A stretch of DNA of 59,969 nucleotides, filler included, from Sphacelaria rigidula (taxonomy: Eukaryota): NCBI GenBank assembly GCA_964200075.2. It is 4 parts of 4 records of this genome, joined end to end, with 100 filler letters (N's around TTAATTAATTAA, not from the genome) between each part and the next. Parts side by side here need not be neighbours in the genome. Positions count along the whole stretch, not along the records: positions 45,057 to 59,969 come from CAXNAA020001991.1; 3 more parts are not named here. One strand, 5' to 3'. A model generated the notes under the pieces. That model was not told where the DNA came from and did not search any database. It saw nothing but the letters and a program-made list of their open reading frames with translations. The position numbers and the translations under genes were made by a program. Below are positions 13,862 to 59,969 of the stretch, in pieces. Position 1 is the first letter of the stretch; each line of letters starts with the position of its first letter.

Positions 13862-14150
13862 ACCCGGTAGCTCAGTTGGTAACCTCGTAACCCTCTGACG
13901 GTTGAGTAGAGGGGTTCGATTCCCGGAGCGATGTGGGATTTTTTCTTACACGATGCCCAACAGTGGAGAGCGACAATGTCGTGGGCGCACAAAATTCGAC
14001 TGAACGGTCGACGAGGGAAAGGGACTGCTCCCTCTCGCGATAAAAAATAAAAGGCAAGCACCGCAGAAGGAAGGTGGGGTACTGTGTGACCCGCGGAACA
14101 GTCGCCCCCTCTCCACGTCCCCACTGCCAATTTCGCCCACACGCCCGAGA
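13862..14150 (+). mobile_element. tRNA-derived SINE family 1
   Basis: cccggtagctcagttgg..ggttcgattcc head; ggtcgacgagggaaagggactgct core. Confidence 0.75.
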
Positions 14151-14920: not shown

Positions 14921-15020
14921 NNNNNNNNNNNNNNNNNNNNNNNNNNNNNNNNNNNNNNNNNNNNTTAATTAATTAANNNNNNNNNNNNNNNNNNNNNNNN
15001 NNNNNNNNNNNNNNNNNNNN
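14921..15020. other. Artificial contig spacer
   Basis: N44-TTAATTAATTAA-N44. Confidence 0.97.
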
Positions 15021-17715: not shown

Positions 17716-17993
17716 ACGTGGGACGTAATTTTGGGATTTGTGTTGTCATCCCATCCATTCTGCACGCCAGTCTACACCTTTGCTTGCCTTTATTTTGATC
17801 GCGAGAAGGGTTTAGAGATACCTTTCCCTCGTCGACCGTAGAGTCTGATAATCTTGATCCACGACATAGTCGCTCTGCACTGTTGGGCATGATGTGAGAA
17901 AAAAATCCCAGATCTTGTGACTGCACCGAATTGGAATCCGCGACCCAACCGTCCGAATGTTTCGAGGTTAGCAACTGAGCTAGCCACCGGGGC
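17716..17993 (-). mobile_element. tRNA-derived SINE family 1
   Basis: tttcgaggttagcaactgagc..caccggggc end and cctttccctcgtcgacc core. Confidence 0.72.
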
Positions 17994-18816
17994 GATCTGG
18001 ATTGGTTGACACAATTGGCTGGGTTCTTTGATGGCCGGAGAAGATTTAATCATCTGTGCTGTCCTCAGATAGCTTTCGAAAAATCAGAAGGGATCTATAG
18101 ATGAAACTTGGGACATGGGATGAAACGTCCGCATGCAATTTTTTGATTGGCCAAGATAAACACACTCATTCAAATATTCGGGTTGATCAAGGCTTCTCGG
18201 TAAAGAAAACCTATATACACACCCAGGAGCACATACATGTCTTGGCACAACCTTGCTCTATGACGAAGACACAGATTTTCATCTTGTATTTGTCGTGCTA
18301 CTGCGTGCACGTGTTCGTGCTTTGCAGCGTGAATACTCTACTCCCCGAAACTCTGTAGGTATATGTAGCTAACCTTGACCCTAAGTCCACACCCATGGCT
18401 CCAACTATGTGTCGGCAGGATATACACATAGGCTAGCTGCGTTGGGGAGGTGTACATCTGGGCTCAATGCGTTCGCAGAATATACTAAATGCATTGGAAG
18501 CGTGCAAATCTCCTCCGAACTATACTGTACTGACTGCACTGTACTGTACTTTTGTTCTGCGCGTGGGATCCGTCCATGTGATTGGTTCACAGTACACGCA
18601 ATGAAGACAATTAGGTTAACCCCCGCTAAGGCAAGCAACAAATGAGTACGCCCCCCCCCCCCCCCCCTCCGTATATTTCTCTACGGCTGTTTGCTACGCG
18701 TTGCTAAAGGGTTGGGTTTCTTCAATTTCTAGTGACGGGACATTTCAAAACCCAACCCGGCATGGATTCCAGGATCTGGATTCCAGATCACGGTAACTTG
18801 CCATATACCATTCCTT

Positions 18817-29940: not shown

Positions 29941-30040
29941 NNNNNNNNNNNNNNNNNNNNNNNNNNNNNNNNNNNNNNNNNNNNTTAATTAATTAANNNN
30001 NNNNNNNNNNNNNNNNNNNNNNNNNNNNNNNNNNNNNNNN
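29941..30040. other. Artificial contig spacer
   Basis: N44-TTAATTAATTAA-N44. Confidence 0.97.
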
Positions 30041-41439: not shown

Positions 41440-44400
41440 AATACCGTGTATTCTGCTGCGGGGCGGAAGGGGGCACGGAAAGGGCTAGACAACATGGGGT
41501 TAGATTGGCGGTCGAGGTGTCGATCATCCATAAGGCGATATGGACTCAGGCGCTCATCAGCGAACGTCTCATTCCGACGACTTTCAACCCGGCAGGCAAG
41601 TCGAGCGCTCCCACGTTTGCAGTTGCCTATGCCCCTACAGACATATCAGAATCACGAGAAGGGAGATATATGTTCTGGACTGAGCTGAAGAGCATTGTGA
41701 ACCGAATTCCCAACAACTACCACCTACTACGTTTGATGGACGCTAACGCTAGGACTGAGGTAAGAATAGGAGAGGAGATCTGTAAAGTAGTTGAGGCGAA
41801 CGATCAGTACTCCCGAGCCAACGACATCATCCGGACCTCTTTGCTACAATTTGCGGGTGACAGCAGGATCACCCCGGTCGACACGTTTTTTCCACCCCCG
41901 AGGGAGACACTATGGCATGCATGATTATGAGTACATCCCGAGGGAGGCACGTCGCGTACATTCAACGGTATTGTGATTCATCCGAATTAACTACATCCTT
42001 ATACGGCAAGATCACCGCAGGCTTGTTTGCAATGCCGTTGTCCACCTGCAACCATCCAACGTACCGAACTCTGATCACAGCATCATGTGCGCCTCAGTGC
42101 GACGCCTTGGTCGCTTTGCACGCAACCAACCTTGGCGACCCTCACTCGGAGCAAATGTCAGGCGGGCAATAACATCTCACACCGGGATGATGCCACGGTA
42201 GGGATGCAACTTTCAGTTCAAAGGTTTTCGAAGCTGCGCAGTAATGCCCAGATATTTGCCATCAAGAGGCTCCTACAACTAAGAGCCAAAAAAGAAACAA
42301 AAGAGCACCCCTACCGTGGCATTGGTCGCCGACAGAGGTGAGCAACCCACCCAGCTCATCACCAGCGAGCTGAAGCGGGGTAGAACTGGTGATGCGGTCA
42401 GTGCATTCGCTATGACCTTCGCCAACATGCTCCTGATCGAGCCCGTTGACAAGGTGGTACTTTATCAGACCCGGAAGCCACGTATACCGGGGTCGTTCGA
42501 GGATACTGCCACCCGGGCGGAGTGCGAACAGGCGTGGGATCAGCGGAAAAATAGCGAGGTTGATAGCACCAATGGCACCGCGAGGAAATCCCGCGTGGTG
42601 CACCTTGCGAGCAGCGTGCAGACAACTCAAAGGGGTGCTCCAAGCTGGGGTAGGCGGGTACCTAGATTTGTGCACGAAGAATCGGAGGAGTATACCATCA
42701 TTGGGGACATGCGAGGAGGGTACAGACATCTGAAAGGAGTGTGGAGTCTGCCGGGACACGAAGTAGAGAGCGAGCAGTATGTCAAGGACGGCGACGGAAA
42801 CCTGCTGGGGGACAAGAGTTCAATTTGTAAGAGATGGGAGCGATACTCTCCATGTTGCTGAATTCCATATCCATGACTATCGACTGAGCCGCCATCGAGC
42901 ACATTGCGTACGATCGACAACGCTGTCACTCGCAGACCCGACAAACCCAACGGAAACTGAGAAGGCCCTGAAAGCTATGACTCACGGCAAAGCGACGGGT
43001 CCGGGTGGTCCACTGCTGAACCCCTCAAGCTGGGGTTGATAAGCTAGCCTTCGGCGATTCTGTATTTCACCGAATCATCGCTGCTGTTTGGACATTTGGC
43101 GAGAAGCCGCAGGAGTGGAAATACGATACGCCACTGTCAAAGTGTCACGCAAGAGGAAATGTACCGGGTGTGGTAACTACGCGGGCATCTCCCTCGTGGC
43201 ACATGCTGATGGAGTTCTTAAAGTCGTAGATGACAGAGGAGGCAGGGATCTTCCCGTAAGAATAGTGCGGGTCCCGACGCCAACGATCGACCACCGGCAT
43301 GATGTTCATGGTACGCCCACTACGGGAGTTGGGATGGACGAGAGCAATGCTCCGGTGGGGGTTGCACTTTTATTTTGGGGCTTTCCTTTTCGTAGGAGTA
43401 AAGATGCATAGGGCTTACTGTGAAACCTTGAACCTTTCCGGACCAGACTCCCAGAAACATGGTGTTTTCACGCAGGGGTTATTTTCTGAATCGGCACCAT
43501 TTTCATTCTTTTTCGAGTAAAAATGATGCCGACTCACAAAATGGCCCCTTCAAAACCCCGAACAGCCGCGAAAACCCTTGTAGCTACAAATAATGCAACC
43601 CCTGCCGTAGTATTACTCACGAGCAACGTCGCACTAAACGTGTTCATTATCGGCCTATAAAGACGTATTTTTTCATAGACCGCTCGCTCCTGTGGGAGGT
43701 GCTTGCTCGTTTCGGGATCCCGCCGCGGATGGTCAATATCATCCGTGTGTTTCACGATGGTATGCGATCTCGGGTACTGTTGGATGATGGCGAAGTACCA
43801 GCGCGGTTCCACGTCTGTTAGAGACTCACGAAAGGATGCGTTTCCTACCTTTTACTATTTAACATCTCCGATGCAGCCTTGGTCAACGTGAAGTTACAGC
43901 GGTTCGCGGCGGACCCAACCATCGTCTCGACTCAGTAGGTGTAGATGATGCGCCAAAAGATGGCAATCGTGACCTCCTCGAAGAGATGCGGGTGGAGGCG
44001 GTGAGGGGCGCGGTGTAGGGAATGGTATATGCGGGTGACGCCGGCATAGTGTCGAGGTCCCCAGACCCGGCTTGCTGGAGTGATGGCCACGATAGTGATG
44101 GTCAGCGTCGGAGAGCCAGACAGAGTCCATGCACCTTTCATCAGTACCCAGCTCCGTAGAGACTGCGTTGTGCATCAAGGCGGAAGGTTAACGACTACAG
44201 TAGACTTCTGAGTTTGTCAACCCAGGTGGTGCTGTCAGCACGGATGGAAAAATCTCCGTCGAAACCACCTCCCGCATCAGTGTCGTGTGGGTACGTCTCC
44301 GAAAGCATACTTCCCAACTCTACGGTCGGCACAACGCCCAGCTATCTCTGAAAATCGGGCTGCTGAACGAGGACGTGGTCGAAGCTATGCTGCACGGATG

Positions 44401-44820
44401 TGCTACGTGGGCGCTACGTCCTCCGAGAGTCTGCACGCTGCCCACCACCGGCTTTTACTGCGAGTGGTTGGATTCCGCAGGAAGGAGCGAACTGACCACA
44501 AGACTTTGTCGCTCGGAGATATGCTCGAGATGACCACTTGCGAACGTAGCAAGGTGGACATCTGTCGACGTCAACTCTGATTTGCGGGTGCCCTTGTCTG
44601 GTAGGACGAAATATGTCTTCCACAGCGCATCATGTTCTGATAATTAGCCGCATTAGGGCCCAAGGAGGCCCCCCGGTCCCCCAAACATTGGGGGAAGCGC
44701 CTCCAGGAAACCTACGTGCACTAGAGACTCTTCCACGCAAGGGAGAACGACATGAATGGTTCGTCCATGGTGTGGATGTCGGAGACGCATACGATTGAGG
44801 TTTTGATTGATTGATTGATT
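41440..44820 (+). mobile_element. Degenerate RTE-like LINE (APE endonuclease and RT), (GATT)n tail
   Basis: AVAYAPTD..FWTEL..LMDANART (APE); GKATGP, CGNYAGISLVAHA, LLFNI, GMVYAGDAGIVS (RT); VVEAMLHGCATW; gattgattgattgatt at 44805. The 5' region probably extends to ~40400. Confidence 0.88.
43342..43618. mobile_element. Sola-like MITE (277 bp) inserted in the RTE RT
   Basis: gagcaatgctccggtgggggttgcac / tgcaacccctgccgtagtattactc; TSD acga. Confidence 0.88.
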
Positions 44821-44956
44821 GTTGCACTTCAACTGACCCCCCCCAGGGATCCAGTCGTGTTTACATGATAGACGTTCTCGAGACAATACAAAACTAAAGC
44901 GCTCGCTGAAGAAGACAAATTATTATATTATTATATCCATCACATTAGCTCGATCT

Positions 44957-45056
44957 NNNNNNNNNNNNNNNNNNNNNNNNNNNNNNNNNNNNNNNNNNNN
45001 TTAATTAATTAANNNNNNNNNNNNNNNNNNNNNNNNNNNNNNNNNNNNNNNNNNNN
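44957..45056. other. Artificial contig spacer
   Basis: N44-TTAATTAATTAA-N44. Confidence 0.97.
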
Positions 45057-45189
45057 AATTATAACCGCTACATGTCCTAAAAATTTGGAGGTCAATAACC
45101 GAAATGTTGGGGTCCTACGGGGAAATCCAATTTCAGGGTATTTCGGCGATCCGCAATCAAAAGCACCATCCTCAACATAGATGATTGGC

Positions 45190-47465
45190 TGTTAGGTGCT
45201 CTTCCTCGTCTACTTTGCGTCTGAGCGTTCCTTTCCCCCCATATTTCCATAATGTCTCTTACTTTTGTCTTGTACCCCGCGCCTTCATCTATGCACGGTA
45301 TTTCGTCTTGGTTTCCTCCTGTCTATCTCCATACTTTCTCGACTTGTTTATTCCACCTTATTGCAGCCCGCCAAATCGTTTTTGTTTCCCATACATACAG
45401 CTTTATTCAATATAGTCGGCAACCTCTTTCTCCGTATGTTCTTGAAGCTGTATTCTCATCGCAATTTTCTCATGTCTCTGTTTCAAGTGAGTAAATTCTC
45501 AACTCTGCTCTCAATGCTGTATTACGCATCGTTTTCGAGCATCCAAGTATTTTCTGAGTACTGTTTCCAACTTCTTCACTAACATCGCGTTCCTCTCCCA
45601 TACTTTTACATGTTCCAGCTTCGGTACAATCACATTTATCAGGGTACATATCTTGATCCTAGCGTTTAGGTGCGGCTCTCTGAGGATCACGTCCATCCCG
45701 CCCATTTGTGCCTTACCCGTTTCTATTACCTTGCTCATGTGTGCATCCCGAGAACATTTTCTTGAGATTTTCACGCCTAGGTATGTATACTAGTCTACGA
45801 CCGGCAATTCATCTTCTCCCCACTTCCATTCGAACTCTATCGGATTTTTCCCATCTTCGTTACAGACAAGTACGGCGCATTTGTTAACGTTCACTTTCAC
45901 TCTCCATTACCTACGGTATTCTAGAGCCTTCTCTATCTGTTTCTGTAACCCTTCTGGTGTTCCTGAAATCCCCACGAGATCATCCGCGAACATCAAACCT
46001 GATATCACATCTTCACCCTCCTTGACCCCTTCCTTTGATGCTTCTATTGCTACTACCAAGTCATAAATAAATACCTTGAACAAAGTTTTTTTTTTCCTTG
46101 ATGGAAGGAGGAAACCCAACCCAACGCTTACCCCGCTGACGATCGCAAACGATCGCGGGCGAGTTCGTGTGCCGATTACCCGGAGGCTCGGCTAGACCGC
46201 CTTGCGGCGGTTATGTGGGGAAGGCGCCTCGAGCGATGGCTCAAGGCAGTGTGGGGGATGCTCCCACAAAACTTCCCTGTCAACTAGTAGATGATAACGT
46301 ACATCCTTGTGCAACTCCTTGAAAATATCAAAATAGTTCGATACTTTCCCGTCTAGCATCAAAGCACTTTTAGCACATTCTGTCATCTTCACCATTCTCC
46401 CATCTTTCCTCTAATCCCAGCTCCCCACCGCCTTGTCCACAATCCATTTCTCCATACTGTGGCATAGGTGTTTTGCGCATCCAAGAAGAAAAAGTACGTT
46501 TTCAACCCGGTGTATTTCTCACCCTGAAAAATCTTACCGAGTGTGTACACATGGTCGGCGCAACTACGGTTTGGCCTGAATCCTGCTTGTCTCTCGCTGA
46601 TCTTCTCTTCATTTTCTAGCACCGTTTTTACTCAATCGTTCAGAGCCTTACATAATGTTTTCCCTACCGTACTCAGTGGCGTCATCCCTCTATAGGTTCC
46701 CGGCTGAGCCTTGTCTCCTTTTTTAAAAAGATTGACGACTTCTCCTTCCCTCCACCTCTTGGGTGTGTACTCGTTTTCCCATATCCAGTTATGCAGCATA
46801 ACCATCATGGTAATCATTCCCTCTCCCCCGTGCTTCAGATGTTCATTCACTGTTTCATCTGCCCCTGCTGCCTTTCTGTTCTTGAGTTTAGCTACGCACT
46901 CCTTTCTTTCATCTCTGGTAAATTCTCTGCATTTCTTTCGAGCCTCTATCCTCCTGTTTTGACGTCTGTACATTTGCCTCTGTCCATGCGTTGATATTTC
47001 TGTCAAATTTGCATGTCGAACTCCGTGGTCGTTTTTGGCGTTCCTAGTTTACGGTAGTGCTCGACTAGCACTTCTCTTTCCCCCTTCGAACTGCTGATCA
47101 TTTTATCGTTCTGTGCCCAGTGTGTGGTTTTCCCGTTATCTATCTTCCCTGCCTGGTCTCTCGCTATCCCTTTTAGCCCTGCCTACATTTGTTTCATCCC
47201 GCCATCGAAATCTTCATTTGTTTTTATCCCTACGTCTTCCCATAGTCCCTTCTTTTTCTGCTGTACCATATTTCTTACTTCCTTTCGAGCTTTAGTATAC
47301 TCCTCTCCCATCCTGCCCTAGTTTTACTCGATATCTATCCCGCTTGGGCCTCTCTCCTTACTCGTATAGCATCTTTCACTTCCTCATCCCCCTATTTTAC
47401 TGCTCTGTTGCATACTATCAGTTTTTTCCCTGTGATTTCTCTCGCTGTAACCTTGACCAAATGCT
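45190..47465 (-). mobile_element. LINE reverse transcriptase pseudogene (clade uncertain)
   Basis: KLKNRKAAGAD, KKGDKAQPGTYRG, ERQAGFRPNRSCADHVYTL, VWRNGLW, GVAQGCTLS, GLMFADDLVG, YTYLG; several frameshifts. Confidence 0.92.
46086..46285 (-). mobile_element. 200-nt structured, poly(A)-tailed insertion in the LINE RT
   Basis: Splits QGCTLSST|LFKVF; A10 tail on the minus strand; five or more hairpins. Confidence 0.8.
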
Positions 47466-50447
47466 TCCATCCTTTTAACACCGGGGGGGGGGGGGGGGGG
47501 GCCGCGGGTTATGCAGGGGGGGGGGGGGTGTGGACAACGGCGCGGGAAAAAATGCCCCCCCCGTCGGCAAGCGGNNNNNNNNNNTTGGTAGACAGGAGGG
47601 CGTAGAGGGAGGAGGGGGGGGAGGGAGGGGGGGGGGAGGGGAGAAAGGGGGTACCCATGGTCATGCATGGGGTTGGCGTCTGTTGACAACGACGCTGTAA
47701 AACATGCCACTCACTGCGGAAACTAGGCAACGAGATTATCGGTTGTGGTGTCTCGCTTGCGTTGTTTTGCGGTAACCATGATGGTAGTCGAGTTAAATCA
47801 TGTTGTGCGGCGTGGGAAAATCCCAACCCCGCACAAAGGGGATGCTCGTCCTACGTGATGCTTAAATGGTGAGACACCCATGAGGCGGGGTGTAAGCCAT
47901 GCTTGTGTCTAGAAGTAGCGATACCAAAATACCAAGCAACTCATTGTAGACTGTCATCCAAATGCAAGATGATCGGTGCACTTCGGGCCGAATAATGTTA
48001 GCAGGCTACAGCTCACCCTTCATGCGAATCGCCGAACACACCACGGCGCTTCGCGCTTGGTGAATGAGTGCGAGCCTGGTCCGGGGGAAACCCGGCGTAC
48101 TTCATCCCGCGTTCGTAGGGATGCAAGTTCAATGGTCTTTTGACTTTGGAATGCATGATGATGAGTACACCGTCCGACTCCCTCCGCTGCTTTTCCCGGA
48201 TTCTGGGTTGTATTTTCAAAGGCCATGAAGACTGAAGTAGTGCACGATCTCAAGAATGATCTTGAAATGGTGTTTGTCAGGCGCTTCGTACGTCATGGCT
48301 TCGAACTCCCAGCGGTCCTCTTCAGAGGTACGACTCATGTTTCGAAGTAAACGGATTGTCTTGGATAAAGAAGCCCGGCTGTTCATAGTGTAGATTATAC
48401 GTGTTTTTATTTTTGTCTCTTCATCCATTGCAAATGTTCTCGCATCGTAGACGAATGTGGCGAGGATCGGGAACTGCTCCTCGCCATCTTACGGGAGATA
48501 CTGCACGAGACCGGTGTCCGTTTGCACGATACTGATGATGTTGATAGCACAAATGAAGCGGCCACTGTACCTAAACTCCTATTCCCCTCGCCCGCGCGTT
48601 TACCGTACGTTTGGGATTTGGCACCGGGAGCAAGCGCCATTTCGCTCTCTCTACTTGCCAACGGCTGCACTGTACAATGGAATGTTTTGGGATTCGACTG
48701 CCAATGGGAGCCAGCGCCAGTCGACACAACACCAAATCCTGTCTCAACTGTCCAGCTATCGCTTCCTGATGGCACTGCCTTCCGCTCTCACCTTCAACGT
48801 GGGCAAAATCGAACACCCCGTTCAACTTCCCTGTTGCCTTGCGATAACTTCTGGGAGACCCTTCCATCGCGAAGGTATGGTTAGTGATACCTGTTTTCAA
48901 ACTTGAAAATACAAGTGCGGTGCGTGTGCGTTACTCATGCAGTCTGCCGATTCCGCTCATCTCCAGGTCGGTGTAAGTATGAATTCTGAGGCTTCTCTTT
49001 TGAAGCGAGACTATGGTGTCCACGTCGCGGACACCGTGGACGTGAAGACCAACGGAAGAGAGTGTTGGAGGGAGACACCGTCTCATTCGTTGGCGGGCAT
49101 GGTGTGTGCCTTGATCGGGGAAGACCTCCCTGAAGATCCGAGTATCCGCTTCTCTCGATGGAGCGGCAATTCCCTCACGAGGAAAGAGGTGGGATTTGGG
49201 AAACTCTGCGCGTTGCTTCTGCGTCCGCAACGATTTTCTGTAGTGCCCTCCTCATCACTGCATAGTTGTTTCCGTGGTGCTCTTCAAATTGCTGTTTTGT
49301 TCGTGTTTTCATGATGAACTACCCCCGTCTTACGATCACGGGTGCAGTATGCGTGCCTAGACGCGTACGCGTCCGTGGTCGTTTACCAGGACATCGAGAG
49401 ACTGGAAGATCCCACACGCACCCACGCACTGACAACGCTGCCGGTTTGGACAAAGGTGTGAGTATTGAATATTTTTGTATCAGGTGCGCCGAAGCTGTTT
49501 TCTTACGCCGTTCAATCATGTATGATGTGCATCACGATCGCTCGCAAGAGAAACTGCTATCACGCCCCAAATTTGTGTGTTGTATTCTGCTGTCTGAATA
49601 GGTGCGTCTCTACAGCAACAACCACGCCAAACGTGTTGGTCTTGGGAAGGTGTAGAATGGCGTGACTGCTCCTGAAGCTCTGCGCCGGTGGCGTCCTAGA
49701 CCGTGACAACGGTTGAAGGGGGTTTTTGTAGTCAAATTGAGTGAGACGCCCGTATCTGCTGCGTTCATCCCGCACAAGATGGCACGTTCCGTCTCCGGTG
49801 TGAATTGTACGACGATGAAACACTTCTTCGAGAGCGATGGCGACAGTGTTGTTCTGCCAATGTTCGCCTAGTAAGGGGTTGGCACAACATCCTCCGACCC
49901 CGGCACCTTCAGTACCTGAGAGTACAAGTGTCGTCTACGATGATGACGCCGAGTTCTTCGCTTTTGATCCACCTTGTCGTGTCGCGCGCTCGCCAGGTAA
50001 GGTCTTGCCCCCTCCTGTGACAATGTTGTGCTGAATGGTGGAACCCCCTGAATTTTGGGCACTTGGCGAACCATGCAAACTAAATTTGTTTGCATGGTTC
50101 GCCTTGTAGATGACGAGGACTTTGATGAGGACGGAGAGGACAGCGATGAGTATGATGACTGCGACGTCAGCCTCAGGAGCCGTGCTAGTGTCATACGAGC
50201 CGTTGACAAGAGCAGTGGTGATATCGACAATGGCCAAGATGCGAATGTTGCGAAGGTAGCAGGCGACTTTTTAGAGCGAGTATCGATGTTGTCCATGAAG
50301 GCTATTTCCTACAAACGCCAATCGTCGGTGTACTGCTACTGTGTTGGTTGTATTCATCCAATTTCCGCGGGAGAGGTGGTGCATGCTCAAGGTTCGCCTG
50401 AACACCTTTCACGAGCTTCAGCGTCGATCACGCCTGCTGAAGAAGAC

Positions 50448-52174
50448 CACACCCTGGACGATACAATATGTTTTCAATACTGTATATATTAGTCGATCAT
50501 ACTGGAATTTTACGATTTATTGCCGGCGTAATATATATTGGTACGCTTGGACTGCACACGTGTTGCGCGCCCAATATATATTGATGTCATAAAACTGCAT
50601 ACATCTTGCCCGCCCAATATATATGTACACACGCATATATATATATATATATATTGGTACCGTGGGGTTGAGCACATATTGTCCCATCAATATATATTTG
50701 GGCAGTGTGAGCGACGGCATGTTGCACGACCAATATATATTAGGGTCGCATTGGTGAGAACATATTGACCGGTCAATATATATTGGGTCTGCGTGGGTGC
50801 CAATGTACTGGCCGGTCAATATAAATCGGACATTATTAAGTATGGTGTCAATTCGAAGAAAGATCAGACGCGGTGGATGCCGGAGCCCGTGCAGATTGGG
50901 AATAGCTTTGAAGGGGGGCGCAGAAAAACGCATGCATCGCTACGAAGAGTTGTCAATTCGTTTGATGTATATATATATATATATATACATATACATACTG
51001 GTCAGAAAATATGGTGGAAGAAGAAGCGGCACGGTATATATGCCTTCTGATACCTATCTGGCCACCGGTACGGGGCCGCCTATACGCTTCACGGCACGTA
51101 ATATATCTTCGGTAAACATCACGACGACAGAAAACGCGGGTCGATCTGTGTCTTTTGGTACCCCTGCGGTCACCGGTTCTGTGTTGCCTATACCCTGGCC
51201 AAACAATATGTTCCAATAGCATGCCGATACTTCGTATTAGAGACAGCGCAAATATTGTCCTTTCAATATACATTGTGTTAAAATGTCCTCGGAGACATTA
51301 AACCAATAACATGTATTTCTCGTGTCATGATCGTGAAGTAATGCATGACGATATATATATATATATATATATATATTGGACGTGCATTTGCTCCGGGAAC
51401 AACACGTTCAATATATATTTATATATATATATATTGTGCATCCCGACCGTGTATGTATTGAAGTGTCTATGTATCTAGTCGAAGCGATGCGCAAGATATT
51501 GTTGCCATAATATATATATTGAACGCAAACCATGCAGCAGTATCGTTTTCCCAATATATATTGCGCACGCTCATAGCATAGCAATTGTGCAGCCAATATA
51601 TATTGAACACGCTCGCGGAGGAATATATTAAGCGTTTTTGGCATGTGGTGATATATCTTTAAATGGCGCCCGCGAACATAGAACTGCCCACCATACGAAT
51701 TCGAATACATTTTCCAATTTACGTGTTGGAAATCAATATATATGCAGTGCCACACCAATTTGTACTGTGACCGTCCGTTCCCTCGTGTATTGTCCGCCCA
51801 ATATATATCAGACGCATTGACGTACGACGTATTGGGGCGGCATTATGTATTGGCACTACTTCAGGTGTCGAGTATATTGAATCGTCGATATATATCGACC
51901 TCGTGTGGCAGTGAGTGTATTACTTGACAAATATATATTGGCGTCTTACCTCACCAACATATTACTCGCCCAATATGTGTTGAGGTGGCGCGTGTCGTGA
52001 TATGTTGTTCGGTCGATATATATTGCATGTCGCGAGACTTGACATATTGATCGCAGAATATATATTGACCCTCTCTCGTGCCATCATACTGCTCGCCCAA
52101 TATATATTGACCACCCGACGCGTCCACGTATCGAGCGGGCAATAAATATTGAATATTGTATCGCCCAGGGTGTG
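50448..52174. mobile_element. 1727-bp non-autonomous DNA transposon, CACACCCTGG family
   Basis: TIR CACACCCTGG(A/G)CGATACAATAT with 21/22 identity; perfect 8-bp TSD aagaagac; CAATATATATTG palindromes every 42-43 bp. Confidence 0.93.
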
Positions 52175-53585
52175 AAGAAGACCTATGATGGCTGTAGGCC
52201 CTTCATGGCTTGATCGAGAGACGCTTGCATCATCGTAAATCTAGCCGAGTTCAAAGAGGCAAGTGTTGTTGACGTTACTTCTGCTGTTGGTCGCGTCAGT
52301 GACTTTTGTGAGGATTTCAACCTGTTGCATGAATGAGTCCCGGCGGTGTGCTGAAGCTTGCATCACAGCTAATACGCTTGTTCTGATCTCGTTTCCAACC
52401 CATATACCTATATACATATATATGTACATACGTATTTGTTCGGTATTGACAGGTCGACTTAGCGCTGGAAGCGCAAGGCATATAAAACCGGAGGAGGTGG
52501 TAGCTTACAAAGAAAGTCACTGGACGTTTTTAATGCGGAACTGCCGGTGGTTGGTGCCGAACCGGGAACGTTTGACGTAGCGTTTCGATTCAGTGATCGA
52601 TCATTTCCGGGAGGTGATCGACACGAAATTTAGAGAACCTCTCCTCCGGCCAAAAGCAATCGAGGCCATGAACCTCCTCCGCAACCAAATCGAAGCTGGC
52701 TGCCTCAGCGACCCTCACGGGGTGCCGCTGTACTACGCAACAGGCGAAAGCGCAGCGGGGATCACTACGCGTCGCTGTGTCGGGGGTACCAATAGCACTG
52801 AGTTTAGGTTCATGTCCAAGACATTCACGTAGATCAAAGCAACAGGCCATCCTACTGCCACTAAAATGCATAGTTTCTATGTTGGTCGTGTCGCGTTTGG
52901 CGGTGAAAAATACTTTTGTAGCATGGACCTGATAAGTGGACTTGTGTTTTTCGTTTCCTGTACATGCTTGCTCGTGAAAGGGTTGTCATCGTTATCTTCG
53001 CAAGTTACTATTAGCGTATTGCGCATCTCCCTCGCTGGCTCACTCCATGCTCCTTGAGTCCAACCACTGCTGTAATATCAAGATGGCTGTGAAGAACCGC
53101 GACGTACTGAAGGATGTTGAGAGATGTATCGACCAGTTCGATATTGAGATAAATATGCGCGAGACGTCCACTTGGTACCCGGACAGCCCCACATGTTTTC
53201 CGAGCGGGCCTCTGCACTTTATGCGGCAGGCACAGGTGAGAGGATTGGCCTCTCGAAGAGCATCCGGGATGGTGCGGCTGGCAGCGTACTAGCATATTTC
53301 CTTGGTGACCAACGGATGGTCGAGGACGTCGTGCCCCTGCCGACGCTCACGCACTCTGCGAAGCAATACGCACACATGATGTATGTTGGAATGCCTGAAA
53401 TACCCGTGCGCCGTGCAGTCGGGGGAAAGAAGTTCAAGACTGAGCTAAACGCGACCTTTTTCATTCAGGCGATGGGATGAGGAGACTCCCGCAGCACCAG
53501 AGTATCAACTTCGATAAGTGAGCAGTTCGTGTGTTGTGTGCTGTAGTCTCATTTATTATGGACGCTGGACTACACCGTTCGGCAT

Positions 53586-53878
53586 ATGTGGGCGCACCAG
53601 CCGTGGTCACACAGGAGGAAGGCCAACACAGGAGTTTTTCATTTATTGTTTTGTTTTAGTTCTCCATCTCCCTTCTGCGGTGCTTGCCATTATTTTTCGC
53701 GGGAGGAGTTCAGCAGTCCCTTTCCCTCGTCGACCATGAAGTCGAGTTTTGTGTCCCCACGACAAAGTCGCTCTCCACTGTTGGACATGGTGTGAGAAAA
53801 AATCACGGATCGCTCCGAAATTCGAACCCACGACCCAGCAGTTGGAAGGTTTCGAGGTCACCAACTGAGCCACCGGGG
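53586..53878 (-). mobile_element. tRNA-derived SINE family 1
   Basis: Aligns to 4725-5042 from end to end. Confidence 0.8.
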
Positions 53879-55569
53879 AGACCGCCCAGTAGAGTGGAAT
53901 AATCACTGTGAATCGATCGTGTCTGGCCGGGCGGAGTGGGAAGTCATCTATCAGAAAACCTCCAAACAACTCTAGTTGTACTACGAACAACTTGGGCAAG
54001 ACGCCAGTGTACGATGTAAACTATTCGTCGAACGCATGCTAAATTGCGGAGTACTGTACCGGAACCTGGCCGGAAGGGGGCGTTTGCTGGTTTAGTCGGT
54101 AGCGTAGCACCCGCTGCTTTTCCGCGGAGTCATTCTGAGGCAGGCATTGACGGTGGTGGGGAAGGGGGTGCCGTAGGCGGTGCAGGCCTATCGGCTGGGA
54201 ACGATGTAGTGATGGGCAATGTTGGGAGTGGCGGGGATACAGAGATTAACTCCGAACTCTCGCCCAAGAAGTCCAAGGGCCCACCTCGAGCCCCACAACA
54301 GTGCCGTACGTGTGGCAACCGCACACAACGCGGCGGTTACAAGCAATTGCAAGCTACACCGCGAGGAAAAGGGGCGATGCTGCAATGCAATGTACAGCTA
54401 CAAAAGCGTCGCTCTGGATCCTGTAGATATGGGAAATGGAGATGCCGTGGGAGAGAACGGGCGTGGTCTCGCTTTGATTGTGAAAAATGCACAACAGATG
54501 ACTCCTGATTGTTGTGAAATATTCAGGCTCGTGTTTAAGTGGTACATTGGGTCTCTGGTGCACTGAAAATAATAAAGCAGCAATCGCTGTCAGAAGCGAA
54601 AGAAGTGCTTAGACCGCTTCGTCTTGTTCCAATGTTTGATTGGTTGACGTAAAACTGCTGCGTGTTACGTACTTTTGCCGCGCCAGTTTCCTAGCTTACC
54701 TGCTTACACCGACTTTGTCGAAACCGCCGGGTCATCGTGCAAAGAACCATGTCCCAAACGCACAAAACTGGGTGGAAATGGAAATTAATCTCGAAGGGAA
54801 ACATCAAAGTTTGTCAAATTATCGGCTCAGGTCGCATGCAACGGTGGGAGACACAAGTCCCTCAATATATCTTTTGAAAACGTTTTTCTACAGGGAAAAA
54901 ATATTCCGCGCTTCGCGCGAATAATTTACTTCATTACAAAATCATCCCCATATATGGGGTCTGTGCCGTTTTATCTGTTCAGCTAGCCTCTACATTACCT
55001 TCTATTTCTCGTATTTCTGCGCCCCTTCGTTGTGCTCAGACTCCAATTTTTGTGGGGACGTTGTTTTTTGTTTGGCCATTGGGTCCTCATTGTTCTTGTA
55101 TTTTCGGCCATAATTTTCTGGGCATTCTGGTTTACTTCTCTTCGCCTCTAATCTCCGGCGCTTGCTGAGCGGCTTTTTTTCAAATTCCAGCACAAAACTG
55201 AGGAAAGAGGGGAGAGACGTGGAAGTAACATCAGGGGGGAAACACCTTCCCTATATTGAGAAAGAAGAACAAAGAGCAGAGGGCAGGGTCTGGCCCCGCA
55301 GAAATGGGCTCAGAAAACAAAAGTACTTGAAAAAAAGGTCCCGGGGGGGGGGGAATTGGAAATATAAAAAAAACAAATGCGACGAAAAAAAACTTTTCTA
55401 GGCCCCAATTAATATGTGTGGGCTTTCGGGACTGAAAAACCGACGGAGCAAACACCTGCTGAATTCGAAGTTTTCCGCCAATAATCGGTCAACATTTGAC
55501 CGCCGCCTTTTGCCATCTCTTCAGGTCGCGAACGGGCGAACAATGCAAATGCACATCCCGGTCATGTTG

Positions 55570-55830
55570 AAATGATAGGAGCGCCAGCGTCCCCGATCAC
55601 TACCTCTGGTCCTTTATGGGATGCAATGATAGGACACTGCGTATGGCCCTCGATAGGATGCAAGGGTAGGAGCGCGAGCGTCCCCCGACACTATCGGTGG
55701 TCTTGCGGCCCTGTGGTCCTGTGATCCTGTGATCCTCCTTGGGATGCAAGGGTAGGAGCCCTAGCATCGCCGGACACTGTGTCTGCTCCTTGTTTGGATG
55801 CAAGGGTCAGGAACAAGCCGCGAGTTCCCG
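55570..55830. repeat. Short degenerate repeats with core ggatgcaagggtaggagc
   Basis: About four copies, at 55619, 55656, 55742 and 55796. Confidence 0.7.
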
Positions 55831-56349
55831 CGGGCACTGTCTGTGGCCCTTAGGCGGGCAAAAGGGGGCGGAACGGCGGGCGAAAGGGGGCCGAACGGCG
55901 CGCCGGTGGCCAGGGCGTGGTGAGTGACGGAAAATTCTCGAAGTTGTTCATTGGGAGATCGTCGCTGTCGACGGCGGGAGTCTGGGGTCTCTCTGCTCCG
56001 GACGGCATGATGTACGCACACGTCTTTCAGATCATCGCAGAGAGCCCAGAAGACGCCGCGGATATTTCGTGGCGCCTACTGGTGGTGAGCCATTGCGCTG
56101 TGATCAAACGCGTGACTCCTTTAGGAAATATAAATATCTCTCTTTTAAAAAACACGAGGCAGGAATTGAAAATCACGTCGCACCCCAGCATGTCGACTCC
56201 CTTGTGTGTTTGTCGTTGATGTTTCCGTGCCCTCCACACCACTTACGTTCCCCGATATGATGAGTATTTGTGCAGTCCCGATTCTCGCGAGTATTTTAGT
56301 TTCTCGTCGCGTGGGTATCTTCGCAAGTTCTTATTTCGTGCGTAGTCTG

Positions 56350-56670
56350 CACACCCTGTGTAATTACAATAGTGGATAGTTGTTTCTCAAACAAGTAACT
56401 GTTCACACAAACTCTAAAACCGTCACAGCAACTAGTTGTTGCCAAATAGCTAACTGTTCACAATCGTGCGCAGCTATTTTTAGGGGAGGTTTGTTCAGAA
56501 AGAAGCAAACAGTCGTTTATTGCAAACATCGAATTGGCCAAAGAGGCGTCTATTAGTTCAGCCGCTCTTTTAGGCTCACGGAGGAACAGTCAAATAGTCA
56601 GCCGCCTTTTCATTATTTCAGTCGCTTTTTGAGGGTCACGGAGGAACAGTTGAATAGTCAGCCCCGAGCG
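56350..56670 (+). mobile_element. Probable left end of another CACACCCTG-type element
   Basis: cacaccctgtg followed by aactgttcaca and tagtcagcc sub-repeats; no partner end found. Confidence 0.4.
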
Positions 56671-56989
56671 TTCACTTTGCGGGAAAGACCACGGATAGTC
56701 AAAATAAGGAGACGCAAATCAGCGTAGGTTGGAGACACAAAAGGTGGACAGAGAGAGCATAGAAGGAGTTGGGTCAGTTCGACAGGGGCCAACAAGTCTT
56801 ATCGATTAGGTGTAAAGGAGGCGGGGCTGCGCAGGGGGCCAGCTTCCGGGCGTGGCGCGAGGGCATCTACGCGCTTGAAAAGGCGGAAGGAGGCGGGGCT
56901 GCGCACTGGGCCAGCTTCCTGGCGTGGTGCTATCACATATACCGGTATGTCTGGTCACTGTGGTATATCTGTGCGCACTGTGAAACAGG

Positions 56990-58750
56990 CTGCCAGCTAT
57001 CGGGAAGCAGCTACTGTCGAAAGTAAAGTTGCACGACTTTCTGGCTCCATCGCAGACATCTGTGTATTGCCGTTCCTGGGCCATCCCAGAGCTGTCGAGT
57101 TTGGTCGAAGTGCAGAAAACCTACACTCATGCTAAATATTTCTCGCTCAATCGCACACAGGCGTGTATTGCCGTTTCTGGGCCATCCCGGAGGTGTCGAG
57201 GTTTGTCGAAGTGCAGAAATCTATGCTCGTGCAAGGGGAAGCAACTACTTTCGGAAGTAAAGCTGCACGGTTTGATGGCTCAATCGCACACGTCTGTGCA
57301 TTGCCGATTCCGGATCATCCCGGAGCTGTCGAGGTTGTTCGAAGCGCAGAAAACCTACTCTCATGTTGAATGTTTTCTGACTCACTCACACACTGGTGTG
57401 TGTATTGCCGCTCTGGGCCATCCCGGAGTTGTCGAGTTTTATCGAAGTGCAGAAACCTATGCTCGTGCTGAACCAATATCTCCAGGACATCCGAGAGGTT
57501 GACGTCTGATCAGTTCGCGTTGCACACGTCAATAGCGTGTCTGCACATACGCTACTCGACCCGGGCTGCCGATTTCGGGTTGCAGCAATACAATGAGCTC
57601 CAACACATTTCGACAGGCTTGTTACTCAATTGCACGTGTGGTTGCCGTTTCGATTACCTATCGGAGCTGTCGAGTCGTCGTCGAAGTGCAGAAGCCTGTG
57701 TGGCGAAAAAACAAAATATATGCTGAACCATCCTCTCACGGAATTTCGTGGGAGGTTGCCGTCTGGTCAGCAGCGTTGCACATATGCACGCTCCTTGACC
57801 GGGCTGTCGGGAATTTCCGAGTTGCAGCAAGCAGAAAGCCCCAAAATTCAGCAGGCTTCTGGCTCGATTGTCATGTGCAATTGCCGTTTCGATTGTATAC
57901 CGGAACTGTTGAGTCATCTTCGAAGTGCAGAAGTCTGCGGGCCAAATGCCTATGCTGAACCAACCTCCTACGGAAATCCACGGGAGGTTGCCCCCTGGTC
58001 AATTAGCGGATGGTGCAAACGCTTCTTGATTCAGAGTGCCGAAATACTTCGGGAGGCATCATATGTATATATGTATATATATATCAGTTAAAACTTTGAA
58101 TCAATCGTACCCAGAGGTGGTCGCCGTTGCGATTGTAGTGCAACTGTCGAGTTCTGTTTTTCTTACAAGTACAGAAGCCTACGAACGCCGCTGAATCAAC
58201 ATCATACGCTGTTGCCGTTTCATCCCGGATGTTCGATTACTTACCGGCGCTGTCAGTCGTCTTCGAAGTGCAGAAACCTGTGTAAAAGCATATATATATA
58301 TATGCTGACATCTATATCTATATATATGCTGGTCCAAATCTCTCACGGAAATCCACGGGAGGTTGCCGTCTAGTCAGTAGCGGTGCACGTGTTTTCGCTC
58401 CGTGGCCCGGGCTGACGAAAACTTTTCGAGTTGCAGCAAACAATATGTTCAATGTGTGTATATATATCTATATATCAGCACGTTTTCTGCCTCACCTGCC
58501 CTGTGTACTAGCCGCTTCCATTGTATATCGATCCCACGGATATCCACGGGGAGTTGCCCTCTAGTCAATCAGCGGATGGTCAAGACGCTTCTTGATCCAG
58601 AGTGCCGAAAGACGTCGGGAATCAGCCAAATAGATATCAGTCGAAACTTTGACTGTCTATGGGAACGGTCGAGTATAATTTTCTTCGACGTACAAAAGCC
58701 TACGTACGCCGCTAAATCAACATCATAGGATGTTGCCGTTTTCATTATGG
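56990..58750. repeat. Degenerate satellite-like array (~100-120-bp units grading into longer units)
   Basis: tgtattgccgtt..ccatcccggagctgtcgag..tcgaagtgcagaaacct recurs at ~57060, 57165, 57300, 57400, 57640, 57880 and 58240. Confidence 0.85.
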
Positions 58751-59204
58751 ACGCTTGGTGTGTCCGCGATGTAGAGCGTGTGTGTGATCGTCGGTCAAAT
58801 ATCGAATCCGTCGGCACAAGTGTTCTCTGTTTTATACATAATATATATATGTATATATTTTCCCGCGGGGGAGGGCATGACGGAAATGGCGTGATCGGCA
58901 AAAAGCCATCGATCCAAACGCCGGCGAGCGAAAAACACACACACACACACACACACACACAACAATGACACATCTCGACAGCTGATGCCTCCAGCTTGCG
59001 ATAGGAAAACGAGTCTTGTCTACGGGGCTACTGTCCAAACTATCCACGAAAGTTTGACGATGCGTTTCCAACTCGGCGTGATGCTCGCATGTGTTTGAAA
59101 CCCGAACACCAGTGGCCGCCGCTCGTTGATATTCGTCGCTAAACTTTTGTTTATCCCATATTGACCCATATCCGCATGACCGCCTTATTGTTTCTCTACA
59201 TTAG

Positions 59205-59966
59205 ATGCCTGCGGCGACGAGGTCATCGACTGAGGGCATTCCACGGAGGCATGGCCGCGGGGGCGCCCGTACTATATGGCGCGCGCCCGGTAGATCGGGG
59301 TCGGGGCGTGCACCACCCAGGGCGCGGTCGGCCGCACCTCTACGCGAGGGCGCTGCGTTGTTGCGGGCACACTGCCGCAAATGGCCTGCCAAGATGTTGG
59401 AACCGGAGGTATGCGCCATGATGGAGTCCCTCGTTGATGATGACCTGGGTCGGTGGTCTTCGAGCCTGTTTACTAGCGCCGTCGTATTCCAGCGGCAGCA
59501 CCCAACGCCTCCAAATATCGAGGACATGCCTCCGGTGGTGACGCCGCAGTGGACGTTCCTGCGCAACTTTATTGATAGCGGGGGACTTCGGGGCATCCGC
59601 ATCCGCACCTCTTCCCTACTGTCGCCGACCAAGCGTTCCCGCTCCGGAAATAACCAAATTCGTGACCGACACCGCTTCGTGGAGGCGAAGGAAGGAGTAT
59701 GCTGTCGCCGGAACTGCCCATGGGAGCACAACAAGAAAGCAAACCGTCGATCCAGCAACGGGGGCGACGGTCCTCGAGCTAGCGGCGGGGGAGGCGGCGG
59801 CGGTGGCAATGGTCGCGTCGATGGCATTGGTCGCGCCGGTGGCGGCGGCTTGGAGACCGGGGGAACCAACAACCGCCGCAGCAACCAGAGCGCCGGGGGC
59901 GGCACTGGTGGACGCGGTAATGGCGGTGGGGGCGGGGGCGGCGGCGGTGGTGGGGGCCGCAACTAG
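59205..59966 (+). CDS. Possible exon or ORF with a degenerate CCCH zinc finger and Gly-rich tail (retroelement gag-like, or last exon of a gene)
   Basis: Open for 253 codons after a ttctctacattag acceptor-like site; HRFVEAKEGVCCRRNCPWEH lacks the first Cys. Confidence 0.4.
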   Translation: MPAATRSSTEGIPRRHGRGGARTIWRAPGRSGSGRAPPRARSAAPLREGAALLRAHCRKWPAKMLEPEVCAMMESLVDDDLGRWSSSLFTSAVVFQRQHPTPPNIEDMPPVVTPQWTFLRNFIDSGGLRGIRIRTSSLLSPTKRSRSGNNQIRDRHRFVEAKEGVCCRRNCPWEHNKKANRRSSNGGDGPRASGGGGGGGGNGRVDGIGRAGGGGLETGGTNNRRSNQSAGGGTGGRGNGGGGGGGGGGGGRN

Positions 59967-59969
59967 GGG

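What the first reader, a model, noticed from the sequence alone, without database searches (positions are those of the whole stretch)
48440..54510. DDE transposase with a WRN-like 3'-5' exonuclease inserted in its catalytic region
Seen in the sequence: exon-like blocks on the + strand, in this order. D.ECGEDR (48446); exonuclease motif I GFDCQW (48690); motif II region (48967-49188); motif III YACLD (49348); VRLYSNN..VGLG; an acidic linker; VRLNTFH; GCLSDP..RRCVGGTNSTE (catalytic-type E at 52800); a C-terminal CxxC knuckle. GT-AG intron candidates separate the blocks (~48874-48966, 49189-49347, 49456-49600). Established knowledge: DxxH and a late [ST]N..E signature mark ISL3/MULE-type transposases, and GFD.EW / YA..D marks DnaQ-like WRN exonucleases. 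Inference: this is a poorly characterised eukaryotic transposon group (DUF6729-type, which I recall from fungi and animals) carrying its own end-processing nuclease. This copy is dead (E>Q, D>N, stops).
Basis: partly seen in the sequence, partly recalled or inferred. Interest (0 to 1): 0.8.

Follow-up and report, generated by a model that had tools for sequence, protein, structure and literature searches.

The report
Dead Dada transposon with built-in exonuclease
This stretch is a broken, front-truncated copy of a Dada-type jumping gene whose cutting enzyme carries a built-in WRN-like DNA-trimming domain, an arrangement already described for the brown alga Ectocarpus in 2013, so it is a correct but ordinary find.

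Summary
Window 48207-54508 (+) is collinear with a 995-aa Sphacelaria rigidula protein and with Ectocarpus proteins.

Full-length relatives of about 1400-1700 aa share one order: DUF6729 zinc-finger region, first D, second D (TDxCC), WRN-like DEDDy exonuclease, linker, DxxH, catalytic E, C-terminal Cys/His knuckle.

This is the published Dada superfamily. [quoted passage not shown]

The window copy is dead:
- The zinc finger and first D are missing.
- It has 8 in-frame stops and at least 4 frameshifts.
- Exonuclease motifs read E>Q and D>E, DxxH reads D>N, and the knuckle histidine reads Q.
- Two other repeats are nested inside it.

An AlphaFold model of a relative (pLDDT 86) places the exonuclease between strand 4 and strand 5 of the RNase H-like core, ahead of the usual helical insertion. 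Element ends, target duplication and target gene could not be tested.

Verdict: known kind, low interest.

The parts
48207..48327 (+). First surviving coding block (VVFSKAMKT...ELPAVLFR). It lies after the first catalytic D and leads up to the second D. Nothing of the family is detectable upstream.
   Evidence: tblastn with P0015, P0168 and P0176 starts at 48207. The profile of 8 full-length relatives matches only from profile position 437 onward.
48328..48450 (+). GT...AG intron that splits the codon of the second catalytic D (G48327 + AC48451-52).
   Evidence: Read. Relatives read LF[ST]DECC[ED]DR without a break.
48451..48874 (+). Exon holding the second-D motif (DECGEDR) and exonuclease motif I (GFDCQW, 48690-48707, E>Q). 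It has a frameshift near 48815 and a stop at 48845.
48875..48966 (+). GT...AG intron.
   Evidence: with the block ends.
48967..49188 (+). Exonuclease motif II exon (VGVSMNSEAS...). The catalytic D is replaced by E.
   Evidence: 65% identity to P0001 residues 127-206.
49348..49455 (+). Exonuclease motif III exon (YACLDAY; Y and D kept). It follows an intron that starts at 49189.
49602..50448 (+). Linker after the exonuclease. It contains VRLYSNN..VGLG (stops at 49653 and 49704), an acidic stretch, and then the decayed DxxH motif VRLNTFH (N at 50401-03, H at 50410-12).
   Evidence: DxxH is invariant in 45 of 45 aligned relatives.
50449..52173 (.). Nested, unrelated non-autonomous DNA element that splits the Dada coding sequence. 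It has 22-nt terminal inverted repeats (50448-50469 and 52153-52174) and an 8-10 bp direct duplication of the target (GAAGAAGACC at 50439-50448 and 52174-52183).
   Evidence: pair I20, 95% complementary. Sequence read. The Dada alignment resumes at 52160-52175.
52174..52802 (+). Helical region between DxxH and E. It runs from KKTYDGCRPFMA (stop at 52211) to GCLSDP...RRCVGGTNSTE, with the catalytic E at 52800-52802 (stop at 52578).
   Evidence: 74.5% identity to P0001 residues 497-606.
52978..53527 (+). Region after the catalytic E (CHRYLRKLL...), with frameshifts near 53190 and 53460 and a stop at 53519. It is separated from the E codon by an intron-like gap at 52803-52977/80 whose donor is not GT.
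53528..53890 (-). SINE-like repeat inserted in the coding sequence between ...FDK*AV and EWNNHCES. Its - strand starts with tRNA-like A-box and B-box-like motifs.
   Evidence: Three other copies in the window at 74-80% identity: 4725-5041, 14083-13859 and 17781-17995. Sequences read. The tRNA-like motifs are my own reading; ARAGORN calls no tRNA.
53891..54508 (+). C-terminal region with the Cys/His knuckle CRTCGN...Q...C (54302-54388, the histidine position now Q), then FDCEKC and the stop at 54506-08. It has stops at 53973 and 54017 and a frameshift near 54011-54035.
   Evidence: 68.5% identity to P0001 residues 831-995.

Best explanation
Window 48207-54508 (+) is a decayed, 5'-truncated copy of a Dada-superfamily cut-and-paste DNA transposon, of the lineage known from Ectocarpus whose transposase carries an internal WRN-like DEDDy 3'-5' exonuclease.

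In intact relatives, one protein holds these parts in order:
- an N-terminal zinc-finger/DUF6729 DNA-binding region;
- an RNase H-like DDE catalytic core with the DxxH signature;
- the exonuclease, looped out between the second D (after strand 4) and the strand carrying DxxH;
- a helical insertion before the catalytic E;
- a C-terminal CCHC knuckle.

Inferred mechanism for intact members. The DDE core cuts the element ends and joins them to a target, leaving a 6-7 bp duplication. The tethered exonuclease trims 3' ends or flaps exposed during excision or integration. This role is proposed in the 2013 paper and has not been shown.

The copy in this window can do none of this. It lacks the zinc finger and the first D. 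It has lost catalytic residues in both enzymes. It carries at least 8 stops and at least 4 frameshifts, and two later repeat insertions split it.
For: Shown in the window:
- It is collinear with P0001 residues 1-995, with per-block E values down to 1e-61.
- The closest named relatives are brown-algal (Sphacelaria, Ectocarpus, Laminaria, Hapterophycus, Pylaiella).

Shown in relatives:
- Architecture: P0011 and P0021 have DUF6729 followed by PF01612. In 45 long relatives, PF01612 matched in 40 and DUF6729 in 10.
- Motif conservation: DxxH and the E are invariant in 45 of 45. In 14 relatives, D1, D2, exonuclease motif I D and E, and the motif III Y are invariant; motif II D and motif III D are at 90% or more.
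- The exonuclease is WRN-like: profile against PDB, 2.6e-56 to mouse WRN exonuclease; Foldseek to 2fbx, E 1.3e-12, TM 0.85.
- Multicopy: 12 fragments at 90% identity or more on at least 14 Laminaria digitata contigs. The phmmer search gave 2377 hits at 1e-3 or better.
- AF2 model of P0101 (pLDDT 86, pTM 0.75). Its secondary-structure order is: strand 1 with D211, strand 2, strand 3, helix 1, strand 4 with D280 just after it, exonuclease at 310-499, strand 5 with D542xxH545, helices, then E697 on a helix.

Published (PMC3706591, sections 5 and 12 read in full, passages of 6-8): Dada has DDE plus DxxH, an N-terminal CCCC finger, a C-terminal CCHC finger and introns. A family Dada-1_ES exists in Ectocarpus siliculosus. 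A DEDDy exonuclease sits between the second D and DxxH in the Ectocarpus and Laccaria elements.

Decay of this copy.
Against: - No direct alignment to a named Dada reference was possible. Repbase and the paper's Dataset S1 and Figure S1 were not available, so the link to Dada rests on the published description plus Ectocarpus homologues with that exact architecture.
- My last homologue search returned only close relatives and no fish Dada.
- The window shows no element ends, no target duplication and no small-RNA gene nearby. Mobility of this particular copy is therefore inferred from its family.
- The window's own pieces hit no Pfam family.
Foldseek listed only exonuclease matches, and the profile found no solved transposase.
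Confidence: 0.92

Rival explanations
1. It is a pseudogene of a host gene: a WRN-like exonuclease gene, or a domesticated Dada-derived gene. It would then be an old gene duplicate and not the remains of a mobile element.
For: Ectocarpus relatives are annotated 'similar to Werner syndrome protein' and '3'-5' exonuclease'. Domesticated Dada genes exist in cyprinid fish (PMC8869645, passage only). No element ends or target duplication were seen here.
Against: The protein family keeps the DDE and DxxH residues alongside the exonuclease. It is multicopy, with near-identical fragments in one genome and several distinct copies per Ectocarpus assembly. The 2013 paper built a consensus for Dada-1_ES from repeated copies. 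The window copy lies among other repeats: reverse-transcriptase debris, a SINE and a TIR element.
Confidence: 0.04
2. It belongs to another C/DxxH transposase superfamily (MuDR/MULE, ISL3/IS256-like, hAT, P or Kolobok) that gained an exonuclease on its own, and is not Dada.
For: Other superfamilies do carry exonucleases, for example KolobokD with a DEDDh domain (PMC9587614, passage only).
Against: No MULE, ISL3, hAT, P or other transposase Pfam family matched in 45 relatives at E 0.001 or better, or in 8 relatives at 0.01 or better. The exonuclease here is DEDDy/WRN-like, not DEDDh. Its exact position, the host (Ectocarpus), the N-terminal and C-terminal zinc fingers and the introns all match the published Dada description.
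Confidence: 0.03
3. The exonuclease and the transposase are two neighbouring genes, merged only by gene models or by my reading.
For: The brown-algal gene models are fragmentary and skip exons. P0001 lacks motif III and P0002 lacks the stretch after E.
Against: Single uninterrupted proteins of 1387-1722 aa, from contigs of about 4.6-10 kb, carry both parts in the same order. The exonuclease lies between catalytic residues of one RNase H-like core in the model.
Confidence: 0.01

Closest known systems
Dada-1_ES and the Dada superfamily (Kojima & Jurka 2013, PLoS One 8:e68260, PMC3706591)
   Same: - DDE transposase with a DxxH motif after the second D.
- N-terminal Cys zinc finger and C-terminal CCHC knuckle.
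- Intron-containing gene.
- Brown-algal host.
- DEDDy exonuclease placed between the second D and DxxH.
   Different: This copy is a 5'-truncated pseudogene, only 47-71% identical in protein to the named brown-algal relatives I could see. Its ends, its 6-7 bp duplication and any small-RNA-gene target are unknown. The reference sequence itself was not available for alignment.
Dada-U6_DR and other fish Dada families, which target U6/U1 snRNA and tRNA genes
   Same: Same superfamily by the published motifs. The D1-D2 spacing is 68 aa in Dada-U6_DR, against 69-78 aa in relatives here (my count on the sequences).
   Different: The fish families have no exonuclease domain. Their D2-E spacing is 176 aa, against about 415-625 aa here. 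No snRNA or tRNA gene fragment lies near the window copy.
WRN exonuclease domain (PDB 2fbx, 2e6l) and Pfam DNA_pol_A_exo1 (PF01612)
   Same: Same fold and same DEDDy motifs. Profile E 2.6e-56. Foldseek TM 0.85 at 31% identity. PF01612 is above its cut-off in P0001 and P0002.
   Different: Here the domain is an insert inside a transposase core, not the N-terminus of a RecQ helicase. In the window, two of its five catalytic residues are replaced.
hAT, P, MuDR and Kolobok transposases, and bacterial IS256 (the C/DxxH group)
   Same: Shared D..D..(C/D)xxH..E signature, with a helical insertion between the xxH strand and the catalytic E (PMC3706591).
   Different: No detectable sequence match to their Pfam families or to solved structures. 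The extra exonuclease insert comes before the xxH strand.
KolobokD (Kolobok lineage encoding a DEDDh exonuclease; PMC9587614, passage only)
   Same: A eukaryotic DDE transposon that carries a DnaQ-superfamily 3'-5' exonuclease, thought to trim DNA intermediates.
   Different: Different superfamily and a different exonuclease subtype: DEDDh/TREX-like there, DEDDy/WRN-like here.

Membership tests
Dada superfamily (Kojima & Jurka 2013) | DDE catalytic triad in one transposase | tested here: inconclusive
   In the window the second D (G48327 + AC48451-52) and the E (52800-02) are present, but the first-D region is absent. In relatives all three are conserved: D387, D456 and E1015 of P0034 are invariant or near-invariant in 14 sequences.
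Dada superfamily (Kojima & Jurka 2013) | DxxH motif after the second D | tested here: met
   The motif position is present in the window as VRLNTFH, with D>N. D and H are invariant in 45 of 45 relatives.
Dada superfamily (Kojima & Jurka 2013) | N-terminal CCCC zinc finger | tested here: not met
   Absent from this copy because of truncation. Nothing upstream of 48207 matches the profile or the brown-algal N-termini. Relatives have it: the CxxC...CxxC or CxxxxC region within DUF6729. The failure is one of preservation, not of kind.
Dada superfamily (Kojima & Jurka 2013) | C-terminal CCHC zinc finger | tested here: met
   CRTC...(H>Q)...C at 54302-54388 aligns with CRTCGH...H...C of P0001. The three Cys are kept and the His is replaced.
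Dada superfamily (Kojima & Jurka 2013) | In the Ectocarpus and Laccaria lineages: DEDDy exonuclease between the second D and DxxH | tested here: met
   Order in the window: second D at 48451, motifs I-III at 48690-49370, NxxH at 50401. Relatives show the same order.
Dada superfamily (Kojima & Jurka 2013) | 6-7 bp target duplication, no TIRs, short sub-terminal inverted repeats, insertion inside snRNA or tRNA genes | not testable with these tools
   The 5' end is lost, the 3' end is undefined, no other copy is available and no whole genome is held. No Rfam or tRNA match lies in the window or the flanks.
Dada superfamily (Kojima & Jurka 2013) | Sequence homology to a named Dada reference (Repbase, Dataset S1) | not testable with these tools
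   Repbase and the paper's supplements are not available. The link is indirect, through Ectocarpus siliculosus homologues P0002 and P0169 that have the described architecture.
Pfam DNA_pol_A_exo1 / WRN-like DEDDy exonuclease | Match to PF01612 above its cut-off, and the DEDDy residues | tested here: inconclusive
   The window pieces give no Pfam hit, and two of the five residues are replaced (E>Q, D>E). The homologues P0001 (38 bits) and P0002 (44.2 bits) pass the 23.6-bit cut-off. 40 of 45 relatives match.
   No transposase family was listed among the matches of 45 relatives at E 0.001 or better, or of 8 relatives at 0.01 or better.
KDZ (Kyakuja-Dileera-Zisupton) transposases | CxC and KDZ Pfam domains | tested here: not met
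   Only sub-0.9 feature scores (0.80-0.81) to CxC5/KDZ clusters in the Atlas. No Pfam hit.

The most novel reading that the evidence does not exclude
The exonuclease-bearing form of Dada was reported in 2013 from only two species. It may in fact be a large and old clade, spanning brown algae, chytrids, Mucoromycota and many unnamed marine eukaryotes. In that clade the DEDDy residues are as conserved as the DDE triad, and the exonuclease is built into a loop of the RNase H-like core, between strand 4 and the DxxH strand, ahead of the usual insertion domain. That would make 3'-end trimming an integral step of its transposition chemistry and not an accessory. The brown-algal members may also lack the small-RNA-gene targeting that defines the animal families.
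Probability: 0.3. Interest if true: 0.4.

Novelty: new member of a known kind. Interest (0 to 1): 0.15.

Why it matters
For this window it matters little: it is one more dead transposon copy in a repeat-rich stretch of a brown-alga-like genome.

It has three modest uses:
- Annotation. Brown-algal proteins labelled 'similar to Werner syndrome protein' or 'unnamed protein product' with PF01612 are Dada transposase fragments, not repair genes.
- Pfam's DUF6729 can be read as the N-terminal zinc-finger region of Dada-type transposases.
- The family offers intact natural fusions of a DDE transposase with a WRN-like exonuclease. These could be used to test what a tethered 3'-5' exonuclease does during cut-and-paste transposition.

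Tried and rejected
- Pfam on ten window pieces: no relevant family.
- Whole genome of the window: not held, so no copy census, ends or empty sites.
- Earlier scan notes: none for this genome or sequence. A word search gave only unrelated exonuclease-transposase notes from other genomes, which I did not use.
- Search for the missing N-terminal half in the window: nothing above noise upstream of 48207. I used eight distant full-length relatives, the Ectocarpus N-terminus P0015, a profile of eight relatives against all six-frame ORFs, and P0168/P0176. A tempting weak match at 48145-48174 (FGMHDDEYTV) to IFTIMNEYDQV was rejected, because it leaves a 32-nt gap where relatives are continuous.
- Small-RNA target: Rfam at gathering threshold on the whole window gave 0 matches. 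Rfam at E 5 or better on 46000-59969 gave only AT-repeat 'miRNA' noise and one sub-threshold snoRNA-like hit. ARAGORN gave 0.
- Literature: 'DUF6729' occurs in 0 papers.
- Structural comparison of the transposase core: Foldseek's list was filled by exonucleases. The profile against PDB sequences found no transposase. The RNase H-like assignment therefore rests on secondary-structure order and on the 2013 paper's HHpred statement.
- Bridge to fish Dada by sequence: the alignment query returned 9 close relatives only. The Atlas gave DUF6729 clusters, commonest in Chordata and Basidiomycota, at 0.94-0.97; I treat this as a lead only.
- KDZ, MULE and ISL3 readings: rejected.
Full report
**Observation**

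The window is eukaryotic DNA. The DNA shows GT...AG introns at 48328-48450, 48875-48966 and 49456-49601, and a GT-started, AG-ended intron at 49189-49347.

Pfam saw nothing relevant in ten window pieces taken singly. A search with the first 171-aa frame found two long proteins. P0001 is from Sphacelaria rigidula (995 aa, 71% identity). P0002 is from Ectocarpus siliculosus (727 aa, annotated 'similar to Werner syndrome protein').

tblastn of P0001 against the window covers residues 1-995 in order, at 52-77% identity in the well-aligned blocks. So the blocks belong to one gene, they are not chance, and the homology begins at 48207, slightly upstream of the finding.

**What the family is**

phmmer of P0001 against 1.84 billion representatives gave 2377 hits at 1e-3 or better and 132 at 1e-30 or better. 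Uninterrupted relatives of 1387-1722 aa share one order:
- a Cys-rich N-terminal region;
- xGDxxxK (first D);
- TDxCC (second D);
- exonuclease motifs DxEW, a motif II D, and YAxxDA;
- a variable, often acidic linker;
- DxxH;
- GCLSD...RGTxxxEGxH (the E);
- a C-terminal CxxC...H...C knuckle.

Pfam calls PF01612 in 8 of 8 relatives scanned first, 7 above the curated cut-off. It calls DUF6729 in P0011 (31 bits, cut-off 27) and, below the cut-off, in P0021.

I then scanned 45 of the 49 hits of 800 aa or more. Four were left out for size: P0072, P0011, P0141 and P0143. PF01612 matched 40 of the 45 and DUF6729 matched 10. No transposase family appeared.

DxxH and the E are invariant in those 45. 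In 14 fuller sequences, the first D, the second D, exonuclease motif I D and E, and the motif III Y are invariant. The motif II D, the motif III D, the DxxH D and the catalytic E are at 90% or more.

**It is published**

A full-text search for DNA transposon, WRN, exonuclease domain, transposase and superfamily found Kojima & Jurka 2013 (PMC3706591). I read its sections 5 and 12 in full and passages of sections 3, 6, 7, 8 and 19.

The paper defines the Dada superfamily by these features:
- a DDE transposase with a DxxH motif after the second D, a signature shared with hAT, Kolobok, P, MuDR and IS256;
- introns;
- 6-7 bp target duplications;
- no terminal inverted repeats, only short sub-terminal ones;
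- where the ends are known, insertion at fixed sites in U6/U1 snRNA or tRNA genes.

The paper lists Dada-1_ES from Ectocarpus siliculosus. [quoted passage not shown] ' That is exactly the architecture found here, in the same algal group.

The paper's Figure S1 and Dataset S1 (supplements) and Repbase were not available to me. The identification is therefore by described features and host, not by direct alignment to the reference.

Two later papers (passages only) again list Dada among the C/DxxH superfamilies. They also describe another exonuclease-bearing lineage, KolobokD, with a DEDDh domain (PMC9587614 and PMC8869645). A search for 'DUF6729' found no paper.

**State of the window copy**

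The copy begins after the first D. None of the following finds anything upstream of 48207:
- the Ectocarpus N-terminus of P0015;
- P0168 and P0176;
- eight distant full-length proteins;
- a profile of those eight against every six-frame ORF of the window, where matches start at profile position 437 of 1494.

Upstream lie an N gap (47575-47584) and reverse-transcriptase debris on the - strand. The piece 46389-46631 hits RVT_1 at E 1.9e-5, below the Pfam cut-off.

Lesions inside the copy:
- In-frame stops at 48845, 49653, 49704, 52211, 52578, 53519, 53973 and 54017. Adjacent or overlapping alignment blocks also change frame near 48815, 53190, 53460 and 54011-54035.
- Catalytic or ligand residues replaced: exonuclease motif I E>Q (DCQW), motif II D>E (NSEA), DxxH D>N (NTFH), and the knuckle His>Q. 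The second D, the motif III Y and D, and the catalytic E codon survive.
- Two later insertions split the coding sequence.
  - 50449-52173 is an AT-rich element with 22-nt terminal inverted repeats, 95% complementary. It is flanked by a duplicated GAAGAAGACC, giving an 8-10 bp duplication depending on whether the terminal C/G pair belongs to the repeat.
  - About 53528-53890 is a SINE-like repeat with three other copies in the window. Its - strand starts with tRNA-like box motifs by my reading; ARAGORN calls no tRNA.

**Mobility and target**

No small-RNA gene or fragment lies in the window or near the 3' end. The 5' end is lost and no genome is held. Ends, target duplication and target specificity are therefore untested for this copy.

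That the family behaves as a repeat is supported in three ways:
- the paper built a Dada-1_ES consensus from repeated copies;
- there are two or more distinct proteins per Ectocarpus assembly;
- one 90%-identity cluster holds 12 Laminaria digitata fragments on at least 14 contigs.

**Where the exonuclease sits**

An AlphaFold2 model was made of P0101, a compact 976-aa relative, using 59 aligned sequences. It has mean pLDDT 86 and pTM 0.75. Its secondary-structure order, combined with motif positions, is:
- strand 207-213 (D211), then strands 231-236 and 242-248;
- helix 253-269;
- strand 276-279 (D280 just after it), then helices 282-297;
- exonuclease at 310-499 (D345, E347, D410, Y482, D486);
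- a disordered linker at 503-527;
- strand 539-541 followed by D542xxH545;
- helices at 561-660 and a hairpin at 674-689;
- helix 694-710 carrying E697.

This is the RNase H-like order. The exonuclease is looped out between strand 4 with its helix and strand 5. A separate helical insertion lies between strand 5 and the catalytic-E helix, which is the place of the insertion domain in hAT-type enzymes (the latter from established knowledge). So the exonuclease is not in the classical insertion-domain site but one loop earlier.

I could not measure distances between the three acidic residues, because no coordinates were accessible. Foldseek's list was taken up by exonucleases, the best being human WRN exonuclease 2fbx (E 1.3e-12, TM 0.85 on the target, 31% identity). 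A profile of the family against PDB sequences hit mouse and human WRN exonuclease at 2.6e-56 and 1.3e-54, and no transposase.

**Mechanism**

Shown: the domain order, the conservation of both catalytic sets in relatives, and the WRN-like fold of the insert.

Inferred for intact members:
- The zinc-finger regions bind the element ends or the target.
- The DDE core cuts and joins.
- The tethered 3'-5' exonuclease trims the 3' ends or flaps produced. This is the proposal of the 2013 paper, and no experiment is known to me.

The window copy is inert.

**Comparison and novelty**

The thing works like, and by every testable feature is, a Dada element of the Ectocarpus type. The features that failed (first D, N-terminal finger) failed because the copy is truncated. 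The end and target features could not be tested.

It is a new, dead member of a known kind. What goes slightly beyond the paper:
- The exonuclease-bearing form is widespread. Named hits come from at least seven brown-algal taxa, chytrids (Blyttiomyces, Chytriomyces, Siphonaria) and Mucoromycota (Circinella), plus many unnamed marine contigs.
- Pfam DUF6729 corresponds to the N-terminal region of this family. Atlas leads point to chordate and basidiomycete DUF6729 clusters.
- The structural placement of the insert.

Interest is low.

Noticed in passing
window 50439-52183: A 1.7-kb AT-rich non-autonomous DNA element sits inside the Dada copy. It has 22-nt terminal inverted repeats (CACACCCTGGACGATACAATAT and its complement) and an 8-10 bp target duplication (GAAGAAGACC). 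Its superfamily is undetermined; the duplication length fits hAT-like or Mutator-like elements.
   Followed up: partly
window 53528-53890, 4725-5041, 13859-14083, 17781-17995: A SINE-like repeat family is present in four copies at 74-80% identity. One end carries tRNA-like A-box and B-box-like motifs by my own reading; ARAGORN calls no tRNA.
   Followed up: partly
window about 43000-47200, both strands: Decayed non-LTR-type reverse-transcriptase fragments lie directly upstream of the truncated Dada copy. Examples are 46389-46631 on the - strand (RVT_1 E 1.9e-5, below the Pfam cut-off) and the ORF at 46632-47048 on the - strand.
   Followed up: partly
window 7862-8647 and 10842-11783 (+): Two long open frames match the Pfam Bromodomain family (E 7.6e-5 and 2.5e-15). 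This is probably a host gene with two bromodomains.
   Followed up: no
window 14921-15020, 29941-30040, 44957-45056: Paired 44-N runs recur at intervals of about 15 kb, and 10-N gaps lie at 6858-6867 and 47575-47584. The regular spacing looks like masking or assembly bookkeeping, not biology. The 47575 gap lies just upstream of the truncated element.
   Followed up: no
relative P0010 (1299 aa, Siphonaria sp. JEL0065): This gene model fuses a Dada transposase fragment to a triose-phosphate/UAA transporter. The source flags it 'UNVERIFIED_CONTAM'. It is most likely a gene-model chimera.
   Followed up: no
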